A DNA stretch of 39,407 bases from NCBI GenBank assembly GCA_000934665.2, contig JYFJ02003630.1, positions 1 to 39,407 of the forward strand, given 5' to 3'. Below, in pieces: positions 8,998 through 39,407 of this stretch; within the stretch, counting starts at the first letter, position 1, and each line of letters opens with the position of its first letter. The notes below the pieces were generated by a model. The model saw nothing but the letters and a program-made list of their open reading frames with translations, did not search any database and was not told where the DNA came from. The DNA is from Catajapyx aquilonaris. Its lineage: Eukaryota. A program made the position numbers and the translations under genes.

Positions 8998-9228
8998 TGC
9001 ATGGCATGTGTGGTACCGTAATGGAGAAATGGCCATGAAAGAGTGAAAGACGAGCAGAGATTTGCACCAATTTCTCTGATGGGAAGTACAGATTTTGTTT
9101 TAATGACTTGTCCTGCTTTATTCCATTGTAACCAAACCACACAGTGTAAAATTTATACCCTGCGGATATGTTGGTAATGAGAGGAGAATTACGCTGTACA
9201 GTATAACCAATGCTGACATTGTTTTCAG

Positions 9229-9324
9229 GTTATGGATGATGCTTCCACATTTCCTGGGGCTAACAATACTTCCTGGAGCTGCTGCGGGATGATCTGAAGC
9301 TGGGGAGGAACACCGTTACTGCAG
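9229..9324 (+). ncRNA. Candidate non-coding spliced exon
   Basis: Branch-like GCTGAC (9212), ttgttttcag acceptor, CAG|GTGAAT donor. Stops in all three frames. Confidence 0.35.
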
Positions 9325-9715
9325 GTGAATTATCCAGTTGAATTACAGCATTTGATTTAGGATGTTTAGGGTTGAGTGGCCAGTATTGAAAAAATCTATA
9401 GCAAGTACTAGTAATGTTTGTCTGGACTGAGTCAACCAGTGCATTGGGCTGCAGTAATAATTAGGTACAGTGCGTACCTCAAAACAGTCTTGCATGGACC
9501 TGTATTGCCCTTATCAGGAATGCAGGTTTTTTGTGCCCATTTTTGACATAGTACCCTGGTTATAGGGCAGAGCTAGGAGGGAAGGTGCAAGTGCAGTGTC
9601 GTTGCTCGGTCATTCTATGAGTTCCCCAGGGTGGTTAGTCTAATAGATGGAGGCAGAAATGATCCATCTCTTCATATCAATTCTGTGCACAAATTTTTTT
9701 CATATAACGAAATGG

Positions 9716-9984
9716 CTGGACATTAATTCCGTTGTACTGCTAGTGACATTTTCAATGCAGCAGAAGTGCCCATGAAATTGATGGCGGTCGAACCGTGTGA
9801 GTGAGAAATGGTAGGCTGCCTTGGGTGACGTCATCGGCTGGGGGGGACAAGCCCCCATTGCCCCCAGCCAGTGATGTCACCCAAGGCCTGCCATTTCTCA
9901 CTCACGCGGTTCGCACTCCTTCAATTAAATTTGCACTTCTGCATTGGAAAATGTCACTTGCAGTATGACAGAATTAACGTCGAG
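9716..9984. repeat. Second foldback / palindromic MITE, arms ~125 bp
   Basis: TTAATTC...GTGACATTTTCAATGCAG...GTGAGTGAGAAATGG...CCTTGGGTGACGTCA...GGCTGGGGG is mirrored across a short loop near 9850. Confidence 0.85.
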
Positions 9985-10395
9985 CACTGTACAGATAGCT
10001 TTTGCACTTGGTCATAGGTGGTGAGTTTGGATTATGCACAAATGGGAGGTAATAAATATCTTGCAAGTGATAAGTCAGTCATGGTCTGTAAATTATGTAC
10101 TACTTTGTAATTGTTTTGTAATAATTAGATGTGATTATGAGGTAATATGTTGAGAAGCATGTCCTTCGTCAGTGGGAGATGGAGGCCAATTTTTTCCATA
10201 TAGGCCTGCATATCACGGCCATCATAAACCCAATGTATACGGTCTGGGGGGGTCTGTGAATTTTTAGTAGGTACTTCACGAAAAGTCTAAAGAATCTCAG
10301 CTGTCGGGGGAACCCCTGTTTCTAAGTGAAGATAATGTGCTGCATTATGGGGTAATTGTAAAAAAAATTAAAAATAAAAGTAGTTTTGAACCAGA

Positions 10396-10650
10396 TCAAT
10401 AGTTTGAGGTGCCCCACACTTGAGCTTTGTGTAGTATGATAGGGGCTATTTGAGTGTGGAAAAGTTTGACTGCAACGTTTATGACCCGCAATTTCAAGTT
10501 CATCAGTATGGACCAGAGCCCATTAATAGCTGCAATAGCTTTCTTTTTGAAAATTTTTGATGCGATGGTGAATTTTCCCGAGGCAAAAAAGGGGACTCCC
10601 AAGTAGGTGGAGGACGAGGCCCAGAGAATCAGGAAATTGTCCCAATAAAA
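10396..10650 (-). mobile_element. Non-LTR retrotransposon RT C-terminal fragment
   Basis: TYLGVPF...KKAIAA...KLFHTQIAPIILHKAQVWG, the YLG / LFxxxIxPxxxYGxxVWG region of LINE RTs. Confidence 0.75.
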
Positions 10651-11148
10651 AGTGACTGGAAGAAACAGGGTCTGCTCAGAGCTGGGGGCAAGGAATGGTT
10701 TTACGTTCCACAACAGTGTGGAAAGCAAACCGCGCTATGTTTTTTTGGGGGAGGGGGCTCTGTGGCGGGGTCAAACTGTCACTTGCCATTCAGTCGTCAT
10801 TCAACTCGAGGGGGTCGTACCACCTGGTATGTCGACAGTATCGCAGCATCTTTCAGTGGATACCCATATCACGCACGTGTTATCTGTATTTTCATTATTA
10901 TAGGCTTCGTTCAATAAGGTCGAGTTAGGTTTATCTTGAAAATGCAACATAGTTTGAGTTCCATATTCAATTATTTTACAACTTCATTGTCATGTGTAAA
11001 GGAAATAAGGAGTGGGGATTTATTAATAATTCTCCGATCTGTCATGCAGTAGAATTCACAATGGAGTTAATTCATATTTAATTTTGAAGGTCGCATCAGT
11101 ATTCTTGATGGCTTTTTTTAGTGCAGAAAGGTACCACTGACATGCATG

Positions 11149-36407: not shown

Positions 36408-36440
36408 TCCTCCCCCCCCCCCCCNCCCCCCCCCCCCCCC
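36408..36440. other. Poly-C tract containing an N at 36425 (assembly uncertainty)
   Basis: Seen directly. Confidence 0.95.
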
Positions 36441-36496
36441 TGACAGCCTGCCCCTCTTCTTCTTACCTGCTATGACCAAAGCGGGTAGCTAAGGAA

Positions 36497-36660
36497 ATGA
36501 CCGGGTTGGGCTTCATCGAGCGCGGGTGGAAGGATTACAAGGAGGTGCGCCGATTTAAAAACCCATATAAGGCTGTGAAGAAGTTAAACGGCACGAGTGG
36601 GAAGGGCCGGAGTTCCTGCGCCTTTTACGAGGCGCTCAACTCTTGTGCTGAGTGAAAATC
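36497..36660 (+). mobile_element. Trihelix Myb/SANT fragment, likely the convergent ORF2 of the adjacent Harbinger element
   Basis: MTGLGFIERGWKDYKEVRRFKNPYKAVKKLNGTSGKGRSSCAFYEALN. Confidence 0.7.
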
Positions 36661-36949
36661 CTTACATCGCAGCACCAGGTGTTCTAGAAAGCTGCAAAAT
36701 GCAGCCACCCCAGATGAGGCAACCACGCTGGACAGCTTCTCTGGATATCTTCATGCTTCTGAGGAGAGGTTTCTTAAAGCGTCAAAGGAGAGCCTGGAAA
36801 TGAGCATGATGGATCAGAGAGGAGGAACGGGAAGACATGAGGCGTGAAGCAGAAAGGGAGCATGAGCTTAGAATCCTCGAGCTGTTGACAAGGAATAGGA
36901 AATAAAATGAAGTGAGCTTCTTTCCTTGCACATGGAAGCTGTTATTTTT

Positions 36950-38404
36950 TTATGTCAGCGGCAAGTGTGATGCAATTGCCCTGCGAAAAGCAAGGGGGTC
37001 ACGATCAGGTAGGGAATCATTTGCGTCGCAGGGCACCTCGCCTTTTTTAAACTCCTCCAGGATGTCTTCCAACCAATGCCGGGGAAACACTTCGTTTTCA
37101 GATTGGCACACGTTGTGAAGAGTGACACATGCAGCTATTACATTTGGTGTAAAGGTGGTCCCCACATCGCAACGCTTCAAAATGATCCTCCACCTGGCCT
37201 TCATTCAGCGGCAGAACGGTTGGAGCTAGGGGCACCTTACTCGGCTCGATGGGCATCCTTGTGCTTCTCAATAATTTTTTATTGAAATTTTTTTGACCCC
37301 GTGTTAAATGACCATTATCAGGAAATGGCTTCACCAGCCATGTTTTAAGAGGATAAGCCGGATCACGCAGGAGAAGGTTCTTCTGAGGACCAATTCACTG
37401 CTGCCATCTGTCAGTTCGTTCTCAGTGGTTGGTTCGTGTTCCGTGGTCCCTAATTCATCTGTTAGGAGGTTTTCCTGGAAGAGTTTGGTCTTAAAATGTT
37501 GATTAGCCGGGTGGGGATTTACCCGTGGGGCTGCAGATGGCTATGCCGGGTAAGCCCCCCTTATCTAATACTAAAGGAGAAGGTAGTGGACTTGTACACC
37601 ACAAATTCTGCGTGTATCCTGGGGCAGCAACTACTCCTTCTCTGCCAGTTGGAACGGAAGAATTGGAAAGGATTCTAGCATCGTGGACGCTCCCAGGCCA
37701 GCCAATGACAACATCCATGAAATTGCAATGGCAATCTGCCACAGCCTGCATGACATAACTGTAGAAGTTCTTTCTGTTGTAGTAGTCCGCATGGTCTTCC
37801 TTTGGCGCGAGGATGGGGATGTGTGTTCCGTCTATGCACCCAATCACTTGAGGAAAGCCTTTCCTCTTCTCGAACACACTAGCAATTGCTGGCAGTTGTG
37901 ACCATTCAGGGAACTTGACGTATGATGGCACCATGACATCTACAATTGCAGTGCACACTTTCCTGAATGTGATCCCCACAGAAGCGGAACTCACACCAAG
38001 GAGATGCCCTATAGTCCTCTCTTCTGCAGTGCTGGCTAGTCTCCACAGACAAATGGCAAGCCTCCTCTCGGATGATATGGCGGCTCTGAAACATCTGTCA
38101 CACTTCCCAATTCTTGGCCGCAGCCTGTCGACTATCATATGGAAAGTAGATTGTGTCAATTTTTGCGCGTTATTCACTGTCAGTAATATCATATATTCGG
38201 GTGATACATGCAACAGTTAGAGTGTGATGGAGTGTGAATGGAATATGTGAATGGTTTCAAGCTTTTGCTGGTTATTCGTACCATGAAGGTTTCTCGGCTC
38301 ATGCGGAAGTTCTCCAACCAGTCAGTGAGGGTCCAAGTTTTGAGAACGATGAAATCCCAGAAGTGAAAACTCCTTGCCTTGGTCCAGATGGCCCGATCCA
38401 CCAC
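36950..38404 (-). mobile_element. PIF/Harbinger (HARBI1-like) DDE transposase, degenerate
   Basis: WLENFRMSRETF, IGCIDGTHIPILAP, YYNRKNFYS, GWPGSVHDARIL, LLRDPAYPL, KARWRIIL, ACVTLHNVC. Confidence 0.93.
37379..37574 (+). mobile_element. 196-bp insertion inside the Harbinger transposase, probably a retroposon 3' end
   Basis: 10-bp TSD AGGAGAAGGT at 37369-37378 and 37575-37584. Removal restores GVQVHYLLLRDPAYP. Ends in a TCTAATACTAA tail-like sequence; strand is tentative. Confidence 0.75.
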
Positions 38405-38424
38405 GCAATGGGTGCAGGAAATGA

Positions 38425-39407
38425 CTCTTCATGTGAATGTTGTTCCTCGAAGTTGTTGCTTTTAATCTTGACGCCATAGACAACAACCACCTTGGAAGTG
38501 TTTACTACTCGAGAAATACTGCAGCAAAGCTTGGGCGAACATAGATGTAAGACTGGCTTCGGTCATTGATGAGGACAGAAGCTCTCTCAGAGACATGGTC
38601 AGTTTCTTTGTCAGTTAAGTTTAAATTCTGTGGATGTCACTGCTCTTTTCGTACGTGTCTTGTTTTTTAGAGATTGCTCCTGGTAACGGTCAACCACCAC
38701 ACGCACAGGTTCAAAATGTGACATGCCCGTGTTGATTATGTGTATGCCATTGGGATCTTCATAGTTTGTTGCATACTCTCCCACAGATTCTGACGATCTT
38801 GGCCCTGACACCCGCTGGTGTGCCCAGACTGTTTCTCCGTTATCGACGAATTTTTAAATGATGTGGGTTGTAACTTCAAACTCTGGGCGACCCCACGTCG
38901 GCTCTGTGAGACCTAGTTGTCTGGCCCTCTCCGACCAGTCGGCACGAAAGCATATGCGTGGAATGTAATGTTCCAATGTCTGTTGTTCATAATCTAGGTC
39001 GTCAACGAGCCACGATTTTGATTCCGGCTCTAGTTCTCTCTTCACCTTTTCAGCATATCTCTGGAATATGTGGCGAAGCTCTGCCACTGTGGTTGCTGAT
39101 GTTGGTCCTCTTTGCACAAGTCCTTGTCGGACTGATTCAAAGAAGCACTCTCCATTCCCCTTGGCACGGCCAGCCTCAAAATCTGGTCGTAGGTCTGGGG
39201 CTGTAGGACCTGTTATGTAGATTAGGACTTACGTAGATTACAAATTTCCATGGCTTCGGCACAAACTTCCTGAGTATTTGCACACTTCAGTCGCTGCTTC
39301 AACAAATAATCCTGTATTCTCTTCCTCAGCAACATATTTTCCATTTTGGCACCTAGGAGTTCGCTGTTCGTCCCACTAATCTTCTTCAATAGTGTGGGCT
39401 CTTGCCA
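38425..39407. repeat. Duplicate of 22498-23475 (runs off the window end)
   Basis: Directly alignable with few substitutions and small indels. Confidence 0.95.
38611..39407 (-). pseudogene. OTU-family deubiquitinase-like pseudogene, copy 2
   Basis: GRAKGNGECFFESVRQGL (Cys 39145-39147), WGRPEFE, same TAA at 38854, IHIINTGMSHFEPV (His 38716-38718). Confidence 0.8.

What the first reader, a model, noticed from the sequence alone, without database searches (positions are those of the whole stretch)
9000..39407. Candidate flamenco-like uni-strand piRNA cluster: ~30 kb of unrelated transposon coding fragments, nearly all on one strand
Seen: counting duplicated modules once, 16 recognisable coding fragments are on the minus strand (LINE RT x2, mariner x2, MULE, SGNH, OTU, LINE ORF1 x2, Sola2, CACTA, hAT x2, Myb, P, Harbinger) and one on plus (the Myb ORF facing the Harbinger transposase, probably part of that element). 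A simple two-sided binomial for 16:1 gives about 3e-4, assuming independence. DNA transposons have no intrinsic orientation preference. Known: Drosophila flamenco and mosquito uni-strand clusters are long single transcripts carrying TE fragments antisense to transcription. Inference: a plus-strand transcript here would yield antisense piRNAs against about eight TE superfamilies. Unlike flamenco, which is LTR-dominated, this block is dominated by DNA transposases and I see no LTR element.
Basis: partly seen in the sequence, partly recalled or inferred. Interest (0 to 1): 0.88.

Follow-up and report, generated by a model that had tools for sequence, protein, structure and literature searches.

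The report
One-strand transposon graveyard, possible piRNA locus
About 30 kb of decayed transposon genes from many unrelated families all point the same way, which is what a one-strand piRNA source locus looks like, but no RNA data could be reached, so it stays a reasonable, untested candidate of a known kind.

Summary
Strand-symmetric scans found transposon-derived coding remnants only on the minus strand of 9000-39407. They are hAT, P element, Harbinger, a near full-length CACTA transposase, two L1-type ORF1 pieces, four copies of a poly(A)-ended retroposon ("A", carrying ORF1, OTU and SGNH), and three mutually homologous LINE-tail pieces. Tc1/mariner (two) and MULE rest on weak matches or recalled motifs. 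The only plus-strand piece is a weak Myb-like ORF beside the Harbinger transposase. I found no LTR or retroviral domains.

SGNH, OTU and ORF1 belong to one element, three of its copies form a head-to-tail array, and LINE-type insertions are known to favour the orientation of a resident LINE. I count about 13 events, all minus: p about 2e-4 if independent, about 1e-3 allowing for LINE coupling.

The interpretation could not be tested. No RNA run was listed, no genome is held and the contig could not be extended. I rate a plus-strand uni-strand piRNA precursor most likely (about 0.4). A large intron or lncRNA of a plus-strand gene and a neutral transposon nest follow (about 0.25 each). It fails the Drosophila flamenco definition because it has no Gypsy/LTR content. 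DNA-transposon-rich piRNA clusters are already reported in molluscs, so novelty is modest.

The parts
8485..8997 (.). 513-bp palindrome (foldback or MITE-like) at the proximal edge of the block
   Evidence: Inverted repeat at 87% identity over 517 columns; arms I1-I3
9715..9985 (.). Second, more diverged palindrome
   Evidence: Self-blast inverted match, 77% over 278 columns
10399..10734 (-). LINE reverse-transcriptase tail piece (region after the catalytic motif)
   Evidence: tblastn match to 19508-19597 in minus frames, E 7e-5 and 1.7e-6. The LINE label comes from a recalled motif; no Pfam or PDB hit
11264..11872 (-). Tc1/mariner-like transposase C-terminal remnant, frameshifted
   Evidence: RSPDL motif at 11587-11601 on the minus strand only, read in translation. 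Recalled motif; no Pfam hit
16941..17269 (-). MULE-like remnant (label from motif only)
   Evidence: TNNALESFH at 17207-17233 on the minus strand. Recalled motif; no Pfam hit
18718..19684 (-). LINE RT tail plus C-terminal Cys/His domain
   Evidence: tblastn to 32575-32823, E 9e-15, and to 10417-10533; zf-RVT E 0.094
20456..24651 (-). Retroposon A, copy A1. Read on the minus strand it carries L1-type ORF1 (23447-24382), OTU (22929-23300), a Pro-rich repeat (22170-22634) and SGNH (20942-21415), and ends in a short poly(A) at 20456
   Evidence: Self-blast; Pfam; ORF1 has 5511 homologues, and a profile of the best 60 hits LINE-1 ORF1p 2ykp at E 1.8e-18; element ends
24724..25368 (-). Copy A3: older, 5'-truncated, 3' end only
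   Evidence: 87% identity to 20468-21150 and 85% to 25385-26052
25373..28499 (-). Copy A2: 96% identical to A1 over 25373-27440 and 89% over 28348-28499.
   Evidence: Self-blast; SGNH 25913-26356; no library match for the middle ORFs
29474..31821 (-). CACTA/EnSpm-type (Plavaka-like) transposase, nearly full length, broken by stops and at least one frameshift
   Evidence: 54 homologues, some carrying PF02992 or PF18759; tblastn covers residues 16-801 of the 802-aa P0001, E 1e-107; no convincing terminal inverted repeats
31791..32093 (-). Second L1-type ORF1 fragment (coiled coil and start of RRM), abutting the CACTA remnant
   Evidence: ORF1 HMM E 1.7e-16; tblastn to 23954-24118
32569..32823 (-). 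Third LINE C-terminal piece
   Evidence: tblastn to 18724-18939, E 2e-11; CSLCN motif at 32773-32787
33532..33853 (-). hAT transposase C-terminal dimerisation region
   Evidence: PF05699, E 7e-8, 32.6 bits against cut-off 21.4
34086..34454 (-). Tc1/mariner-like transposase C-terminus
   Evidence: RSPDL motif at 34290-34304; best PDB match Sleeping Beauty SB100X, E 0.1; no Pfam hit
35625..36035 (-). P-element/THAP9-type transposase RNase H-like domain
   Evidence: PF21787, E 3.6e-33
36476..36652 (+). Weak Myb/SANT-like ORF converging on the Harbinger transposase; the only plus-strand coding piece
   Evidence: Myb_DNA-bind_4, E 0.043, below cut-off; translation read
37101..38216 (-). Harbinger/PIF DDE transposase
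   Evidence: DDE_Tnp_4 E 4.8e-14 and Plant_tran E 6e-5; continuation at 37101-37394, E 0.038
38422..39407 (-). Copy A4 of retroposon A (OTU 38857-39228), running off the window
   Evidence: 96% identity to 22495-23475; OTU E 0.0022

Best explanation
The block is a dense graveyard of decayed transposon insertions that accumulated inside a long transcription unit read on the plus strand. Insertions whose own coding strand is opposite to that transcript survived or were favoured. The most likely kind of unit is a uni-strand piRNA precursor. It would start between the end of the ionotropic-receptor-like gene (stop at 7090, AATAAA at 7185 and 7244) and about 10 kb, and would run past the window end. 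Processing of such an RNA would give piRNAs antisense to LINE-type elements and to at least five DNA-transposon superfamilies. Shown: the co-orientation, the diversity of families, the mix of old remnants with a younger family (copies of A 95-96% alike) and the absence of plus-strand transposon coding. Inferred: any transcription, its direction, and any small RNA.
For: All transposon coding remnants that could be oriented are on the minus strand:
- 7 of 7 transposon-type Pfam hits among the 438 ORFs scanned on both strands of the window.
- CACTA at 29474-31821.
- Two L1-type ORF1 pieces.
- Three mutually homologous LINE-tail pieces.
- Four copies of retroposon A.
- Motif-level Tc1/mariner (two) and MULE.

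ORFs of at least 150 aa: 7 minus against 1 plus. About 13 events all on one strand gives two-sided p = 2.4e-4, or about 1.2e-3 allowing for LINE coupling.

Seven of the events are DNA transposons. No orientation-coupled insertion mechanism for these is known to me (recalled), and 7 of 7 alone gives p = 0.016.

The flanking plus-strand gene ends before the block, with a stop and two AATAAA signals. The block therefore does not look like that gene's intron.

Strong co-orientation of transposon fragments opposite to transcription is the sequence hallmark used to find flam-like clusters (PMC10643416, passages). piRNA clusters enriched in DNA transposons are reported for a snail (PMC6128900, passages).
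Against: There is no RNA evidence of any kind, and the transcript direction is assumed rather than observed. I identified no promoter. About 43% of the block by my tally, especially 12-17 kb, has no assigned element, so the orientation of non-coding or non-autonomous elements is unknown. Three labels rest on motifs recalled from memory. Only about 30 kb is visible, whereas Drosophila flam-like loci span 227-1085 kb. Other processes can produce co-orientation: selection inside any plus-strand intron or lncRNA, and same-sense insertion of LINEs into LINEs (2.18-fold in human). The organism is unidentified, so its piRNA biology is unknown. Searches with the receptor gene and with ORF1 returned no close relative.
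Confidence: 0.4

Rival explanations
1. The block is a large intron, or the body of a long non-coding RNA, of an ordinary plus-strand gene. Purifying selection removed insertions whose own polyadenylation and splice signals lie in the sense direction. The antisense bias then needs no piRNA function.
For: Antisense bias of intronic LINEs and LTR elements, ascribed to purifying selection, is well documented in mammals (PMC3088655, passages; PMC3517506, abstract start only). The two recognisable genes upstream are both on the plus strand. The window ends inside the block, so downstream exons cannot be excluded.
Against: No plus-strand ORF in 9000-39407 hit any real protein family. The nearest plus-strand gene ends with a stop and AATAAA signals before the block, so a separate first exon would be needed between 7.3 and 9 kb. 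The paper I read excluded DNA transposons from its orientation analysis, so it gives no figure for them. If the antisense fraction were an assumed 0.65-0.75, 13 of 13 would be expected only 0.4-2% of the time.
Confidence: 0.25
2. The block is a neutral transposon nest. The co-orientation comes from chance, helped by insertion mechanics and over-counting. LINE-type elements integrate preferentially in the sense of a resident LINE or poly(A) tract. Some neighbouring fragments are pieces of one element or local duplicates.
For: Copies A2, A3 and A1 lie head to tail, 4 and 72 bp apart, and A1 and A2 end in short poly(A) tracts. This is the pattern expected when a retroposon inserts at the tail of an earlier copy. 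In human intergenic DNA, L1-into-L1 insertions are 21,559 sense against 9,899 antisense (PMC2836564, Table 3 passage). All internal repeats in the block are direct, apart from one palindrome at 9715-9985.
Against: Seven events are DNA transposons from at least five superfamilies, with no known orientation coupling. All seven still match the LINE orientation (0.5^7 = 0.008). The whole pattern has p about 1.2e-3 even with LINE coupling. blastn found no DNA similarity between the two halves of the block that would indicate an old segmental duplication.
Confidence: 0.25
3. The block, or much of it, is part of one very large composite mobile element or a segmental duplication unit. It was copied as a whole, so its internal orientations were fixed once and carry no functional meaning here.
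For: Several families occur twice in the block: LINE tail, Tc1/mariner-like, ORF1, element A. The window ends within a copy of A.
Against: I found no terminal repeats bracketing the block and no DNA-level similarity between its halves other than the A copies. Even if true, this would not explain how unrelated fragments became co-oriented in the first place.
Confidence: 0.07

Closest known systems
Drosophila flamenco and flam-like uni-strand piRNA clusters (van Lopik et al. 2023, PMC10643416; passages read)
   Same: A dense array of transposon fragments with a clear strand bias, lying downstream of a protein-coding gene. The proposed logic is one long transcript giving antisense piRNAs.
   Different: Flam-like loci are 227-1085 kb, and their bias is driven exclusively by Gypsy-family LTR elements. 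Here only about 30 kb is visible and no LTR or retroviral domain was found. The content is LINE-type plus DNA transposons. Flam-like loci were validated with small-RNA data; this block was not.
Mollusc piRNA clusters (Jehn et al. 2018, PMC6128900; passages read)
   Same: In the pond snail, clusters are reported as enriched for Gypsy and particularly for DNA transposons (Kolobok, hAT5, hATw, up to 108-fold). A DNA-transposon-rich piRNA source is therefore already on record.
   Different: Those clusters were defined from small-RNA mapping, and young, low-divergence copies dominate them. Here most fragments are old and broken, and the organism is unknown.
Antisense bias of transposons in introns (Zhang, Romanish and Mager 2011, PMC3088655; passages read)
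   Same: Co-orientation of transposons relative to a host transcript, produced by selection against sense insertions.
   Different: The bias is described for LINEs and LTR elements, and that paper excluded DNA transposons from the analysis. No host exons are visible here.
Sense-biased nesting of retroelements (Levy et al. 2010, PMC2836564; passages with Table 3 read)
   Same: L1 into L1 and Alu into L1 insert about twofold more often in the sense orientation. This explains arrays such as the three head-to-tail copies of element A.
   Different: In the passages I read this applies to retroelement pairs; I saw no figure there for cut-and-paste DNA transposons, which make up about half of the events here.

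Membership tests
flamenco-type uni-strand piRNA cluster (Drosophila definition) | Transposon fragments overwhelmingly in one orientation | tested here: met
   All oriented fragments are minus, about 13 events to 0; ORFs of at least 150 aa 7 to 1
flamenco-type uni-strand piRNA cluster (Drosophila definition) | Enrichment of Gypsy/ERV-type LTR elements that carry the strand bias | tested here: not met
   0 of 438 ORFs hit RVT, integrase, gag, protease or env families. The only long inverted repeats are the two palindromes, and the only direct repeats are the A copies and two short local pairs (19726-20136, 22161-22410)
flamenco-type uni-strand piRNA cluster (Drosophila definition) | Size of hundreds of kb | tested here: inconclusive
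   At least 30 kb, running off the window end. Extension failed: the pattern was not found in metagenome or genome contigs and no genome is held
piRNA cluster, any type | Dense 24-31 nt small RNAs, 1U-biased, from one strand | not testable with these tools
piRNA cluster, uni-strand | One long Pol II transcript from a defined promoter | not testable with these tools
   No RNA data. The only promoter scan on offer is for bacterial sigma-70 sites and was not run
Transposon-rich intron of a plus-strand gene | Plus-strand exons on both sides of the block | tested here: inconclusive
   The upstream plus-strand gene ends at 7090 with AATAAA at 7185 and 7244. There are no plus-strand family hits inside the block. 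The downstream side lies outside the window
L1-type ORF1p (for the ORF at 23447-24382) | Coiled coil followed by the RRM and C-terminal domain of LINE-1 ORF1p | tested here: met
   5511 homologues at E up to 0.001. A profile of the best 60 hits LINE-1 ORF1p 2ykp at E 1.8e-18 over profile positions 28-195. Pfam Transposase_22 matched only 1 of the 60 homologues, and the ORF itself hit no PDB chain
CACTA/EnSpm superfamily (for 29474-31821) | Transposase homologous to Transposase_21 or Plavaka family proteins | tested here: met
   Of the 54 homologues, 6 carry PF02992 and 7 carry PF18759 (precomputed domains). tblastn E 1e-107 over residues 340-801 and 5e-61 over residues 16-362 of P0001
CACTA/EnSpm superfamily (for 29474-31821) | Terminal inverted repeats starting CACTA | tested here: not met
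   No convincing inverted repeats flank the remnant in 28400-33200. The ends appear to be lost

The most novel reading that the evidence does not exclude
This is the proximal end of a flamenco-style master locus in a poorly sampled animal lineage. A single plus-strand precursor starts just downstream of a chemoreceptor-like gene. Its cargo is LINE-type elements and at least five DNA-transposon superfamilies rather than endogenous retroviruses. That would show the 'trap' architecture being used against cut-and-paste transposons.
Probability: 0.35. Interest if true: 0.5.

Novelty: new member of a known kind. Interest (0 to 1): 0.3.

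Why it matters
If small RNAs confirm it, the block would be a sequence-predicted uni-strand piRNA source in an animal lineage that is barely represented in protein databases. The receptor gene returned no match and ORF1 only one weak one in the 5.8-billion-protein collection. 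Its cargo would be mainly DNA transposons and LINEs. That would support strand-bias scanning as a way to find such loci without RNA data outside Drosophila. If instead the bias comes from intron selection or insertion mechanics, it is a caution: a run of about 13 co-oriented fragments is not enough to call a piRNA cluster.

Tried and rejected
RNA evidence: no RNA holder was listed for window 9001-19000.

Whole genome: none is held.

Contig extension: a 54-base exact pattern from about 38.2 kb was found in neither metagenome contigs nor genome contigs.

Earlier findings of this scan: nothing on this genome and nothing relevant by words.

Taxon: the receptor-like ORF gave no hit in the search for homologous proteins, and ORF1 gave only one weak hit there. 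The organism stays unidentified. Whole-window CpG observed/expected is 0.60 and does not identify it.

Six-frame read-through Pfam: the first batch was too large to print. Smaller batches over 9001-21000 added no family, so I did not extend this to the rest of the block.

PDB sequence searches gave nothing for the ORF1 ORF itself or for the two LINE RT pieces. The Tc1/mariner-like piece gave only E 0.1.

Rfam, tRNA and tandem-repeat scans of the whole window: 0 hits each.

Terminal inverted repeats around the CACTA remnant: none convincing.

Considered and dropped:
- A minus-strand host gene made of these pieces. The pieces belong to unrelated transposon families and are broken.
- Base skew as evidence for transcription. 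T exceeds A on the plus strand, but this is equally expected from A-rich transposon sense strands on the minus strand.
- AATAAA counts. They are 16 plus against 18 minus and do not discriminate.

Full report
WHAT THE WINDOW IS. The window is eukaryotic, most likely animal, DNA. Its first 8 kb carries two plus-strand host genes. One is a set of exons of a bacterial-type (mitochondrial-like) glutamyl-tRNA synthetase: tRNA-synt_1c at 527-889 and 931-1512, and Anticodon_2 at 1532-1981. The other is an intronless 655-codon ionotropic-glutamate-receptor-like ORF at 5126-7090 (Lig_chan, E 5e-10). That ORF ends in a stop followed by AATAAA at 7185 and 7244. No whole genome is held, and earlier notes of this scan hold nothing on it. 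The receptor gene found no relative in the 5.8-billion-protein collection, so the organism is unidentified. Whole-window CpG observed/expected is 0.60.

CHECKING THE OBSERVATION WITH STRAND-SYMMETRIC TESTS. I translated every stop-to-stop ORF of at least 46 aa on both strands (438 ORFs) and scanned all of them against Pfam.
- Within 9000-39407, seven ORFs hit transposon-associated families and all seven are on the minus strand.
- Three are above Pfam's curated cut-offs: hAT dimerisation (33698-33853), P-element TNP-like RNase H (35625-36035, E 3.6e-33) and Harbinger DDE_Tnp_4 (37506-38216, E 4.8e-14).
- Four are below cut-off: SGNH lipase-like twice (20942-21415, 25913-26356) and OTU twice (22929-23300, 38857-39228).
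- No plus-strand ORF hit a transposon family. The single plus-strand hit (DUF6114, E 0.0025) is below cut-off and looks spurious.
- Six-frame read-through scans of 9001-21000 added nothing on either strand.
- ORFs of at least 150 aa number 7 on the minus strand and 1 on the plus strand. The plus one lies opposite the Pro-rich repeat of element A.

FURTHER IDENTIFICATIONS.
- The ORF at 29471-30103 has 54 homologues, several carrying Transposase_21 (CACTA) or Plavaka domains. With them as tblastn queries, 29474-31821 on the minus strand covers residues 16-801 of an 802-residue protein. This is a nearly complete but broken CACTA-type transposase.
- The 312-codon ORF at 23447-24382 has 5511 homologues at E up to 0.001 in the 1.84-billion-protein library.
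- A profile of the best 60 of those matches human LINE-1 ORF1p structures at E 1.8e-18. Only 1 of the 60 matches Pfam Transposase_22.
- An HMM of those 60, run over all 1027 ORFs of at least 25 aa on both strands, finds exactly two. Both are minus: 23447-24382 and 31791-32093.
- tblastn of the window's ORFs against the window links three diverged minus-strand pieces to each other: 10399-10734, 18718-19684 and 32569-32823. I read them as the thumb and C-terminal Cys/His region of LINE reverse transcriptases. That rests on recalled motifs and a weak zf-RVT match (E 0.094). Whatever the label, they are copies of one repeated coding sequence in one orientation.
- The two Tc1/mariner-like pieces (11264-11872, 34086-34454) rest on the RSPDL motif region and a weak match to Sleeping Beauty transposase (E 0.1).
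- MULE rests only on a recalled motif at 17207-17233.
- The label Sola2 for 27603-28454, a second hAT and a minus-strand Myb could not be verified.
- The one plus-strand piece is a weak Myb/SANT-like ORF at 36476-36652 (Myb_DNA-bind_4, E 0.043). It converges on the Harbinger transposase.

INDEPENDENCE OF THE FRAGMENTS. Self-comparison shows that inside the block all repeats are direct, apart from one palindrome at 9715-9985.
- SGNH, OTU, a Pro-rich repeat and the ORF1 belong to one element, which I call A. Read on the minus strand, it ends in a short poly(A) at 20456.
- A occurs four times: A1 20456-24651; A3 24724-25368 (85-87% identity, 3' end only); A2 25373-28499 (96% and 89%, with a different middle part); and A4 38422 to the window end (96%).
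- A2, A3 and A1 lie head to tail, 4 and 72 bp apart. A shared 3' end, variable 5' truncation and a poly(A) tail are what LINE-mediated retroposition gives. Insertion at the tail of a resident copy is a known source of same-sense arrays.
- In human intergenic DNA, L1 into L1 is 21,559 sense against 9,899 antisense (PMC2836564, Table 3 passage).
- I therefore count the array as one event.
- My tally is 13 events. Six are LINE-type: three LINE tails, the A array, the ORF1 fragment at 32 kb, and A4. Seven are DNA transposons: Tc1/mariner twice, MULE, CACTA, hAT, P and Harbinger. All 13 are minus.
- Two-sided p is 2.4e-4 if independent. It is about 1.2e-3 if each further LINE-type event matches with probability 0.69. 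It is 0.016 for the seven DNA transposons alone.
- For the ten events backed by library or homology evidence it is 0.002 (2 x 0.5^10, my arithmetic).
- By my tally from the coordinates above, identified pieces cover roughly 57% of the block. The stretch from 12 to 17 kb is essentially unassigned.

WHAT IT MOST LIKELY IS. Co-orientation of cut-and-paste transposons from several superfamilies has no mechanistic cause that I know of. Selection relative to a transcript is therefore the natural explanation, and the transcript would run on the plus strand. There are two kinds of transcript to consider.

The first is a uni-strand piRNA precursor.
- Strand bias of transposon fragments opposite to transcription is the feature used to recognise flam-like loci (PMC10643416, passages). 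A sequence-only predictor, FlaHMM, exists for flam-like clusters in Drosophila (PMC11400887; search listing and start of abstract only).
- Clusters enriched in DNA transposons are reported for the pond snail (PMC6128900, passages).

The second is an ordinary gene intron or lncRNA.
- Antisense bias by purifying selection is documented there for LINEs and LTR elements (PMC3088655, passages).
- That paper excluded DNA transposons from the analysis, so I have no published figure for them.
- With an assumed antisense fraction of 0.65-0.75, 13 of 13 is expected 0.4-2% of the time. With an assumed 0.88 for a uni-strand cluster, it is about 19%.
- The upstream gene terminates before the block, and no plus-strand coding signal lies within it.

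With rough priors of my own (inference, not measurement), I put a piRNA precursor at about 0.4. The intron or lncRNA reading and the neutral nest (chance plus insertion mechanics) each get about 0.25. A large composite or duplicated unit gets about 0.07. The first two readings are not exclusive: any long germline transcript carrying antisense transposon sequence could feed the piRNA pathway.

WHAT COULD NOT BE DONE. No RNA run was listed, so neither transcription nor small RNAs could be examined, and the direction of the putative transcript is inferred only. The contig could not be extended. No curated repeat library was available, so non-coding and non-autonomous elements remain unoriented. 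Supplementary tables of the cited papers were not opened.

COMPARISON AND NOVELTY. The block works like, or at least looks like, a uni-strand cluster. It is not a member of the flamenco family as defined in Drosophila.
- It has no Gypsy/LTR content: 0 of 438 ORFs hit a retroviral family.
- Only about 30 kb is visible, against 227-1085 kb.
- The RNA-based features are untested.

Uni-strand clusters with antisense transposon cargo, and DNA-transposon-rich clusters, are both already described. If real, this would be a new member of a known kind in an unsampled lineage. Interest is modest.

Noticed in passing
window 8485-8997: A 513-bp near-perfect palindrome (87% between arms, inner arms 98% with a 21-nt loop) sits exactly at the proximal edge of the transposon block. 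It could be a foldback or MITE-type element, or a hairpin-RNA source.
   Followed up: no
window 9715-9985: A second, more diverged palindrome (77% over 278 columns) lies about 700 bp downstream of the first.
   Followed up: no
window 5126-7090 (+): An intronless 655-codon ionotropic-glutamate-receptor-like ORF (Lig_chan E 5e-10) with a hydrophobic N-terminus that looks like a signal peptide, a stop at 7090 and AATAAA at 7185 and 7244. It found no relative in the word-indexed 5.8-billion-protein search.
   Followed up: partly
window 527-1981 (+): Three ORF segments match the catalytic and anticodon-binding domains of a bacterial-type glutamyl-tRNA synthetase, separated by short gaps. This could be short introns, or frameshifts in a pseudogene.
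   Followed up: no
window 25373-28499 versus 20456-24651: Copies A1 and A2 of the retroposon share about 160 bp at the 5' side and 2.1 kb at the 3' side, but their middles are unrelated. A1 has ORF1 plus OTU (about 1.85 kb). A2 has about 0.9 kb with two unclassified ORFs (27603-27908, 27912-28454). The family therefore exists in two module variants.
   Followed up: partly
window 3674-3739 and 4473-4535: Short inverted matches about 800 bp apart, seen at protein level in opposite frames. They may be the terminal repeats of a small MITE between the two host genes.
   Followed up: no
window 36425: The only N of the window lies inside a run of proline (CCN) codons just upstream of the plus-strand Myb-like ORF.
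   Followed up: no
window 22170-22634 (-): A Pro/Gly/Ala-rich internal repeat (units at 22161-22269 and 22296-22410) lies between the OTU and SGNH parts of element A. It also produces the only long plus-strand ORF of the block, 164 aa on the opposite strand.
   Followed up: no
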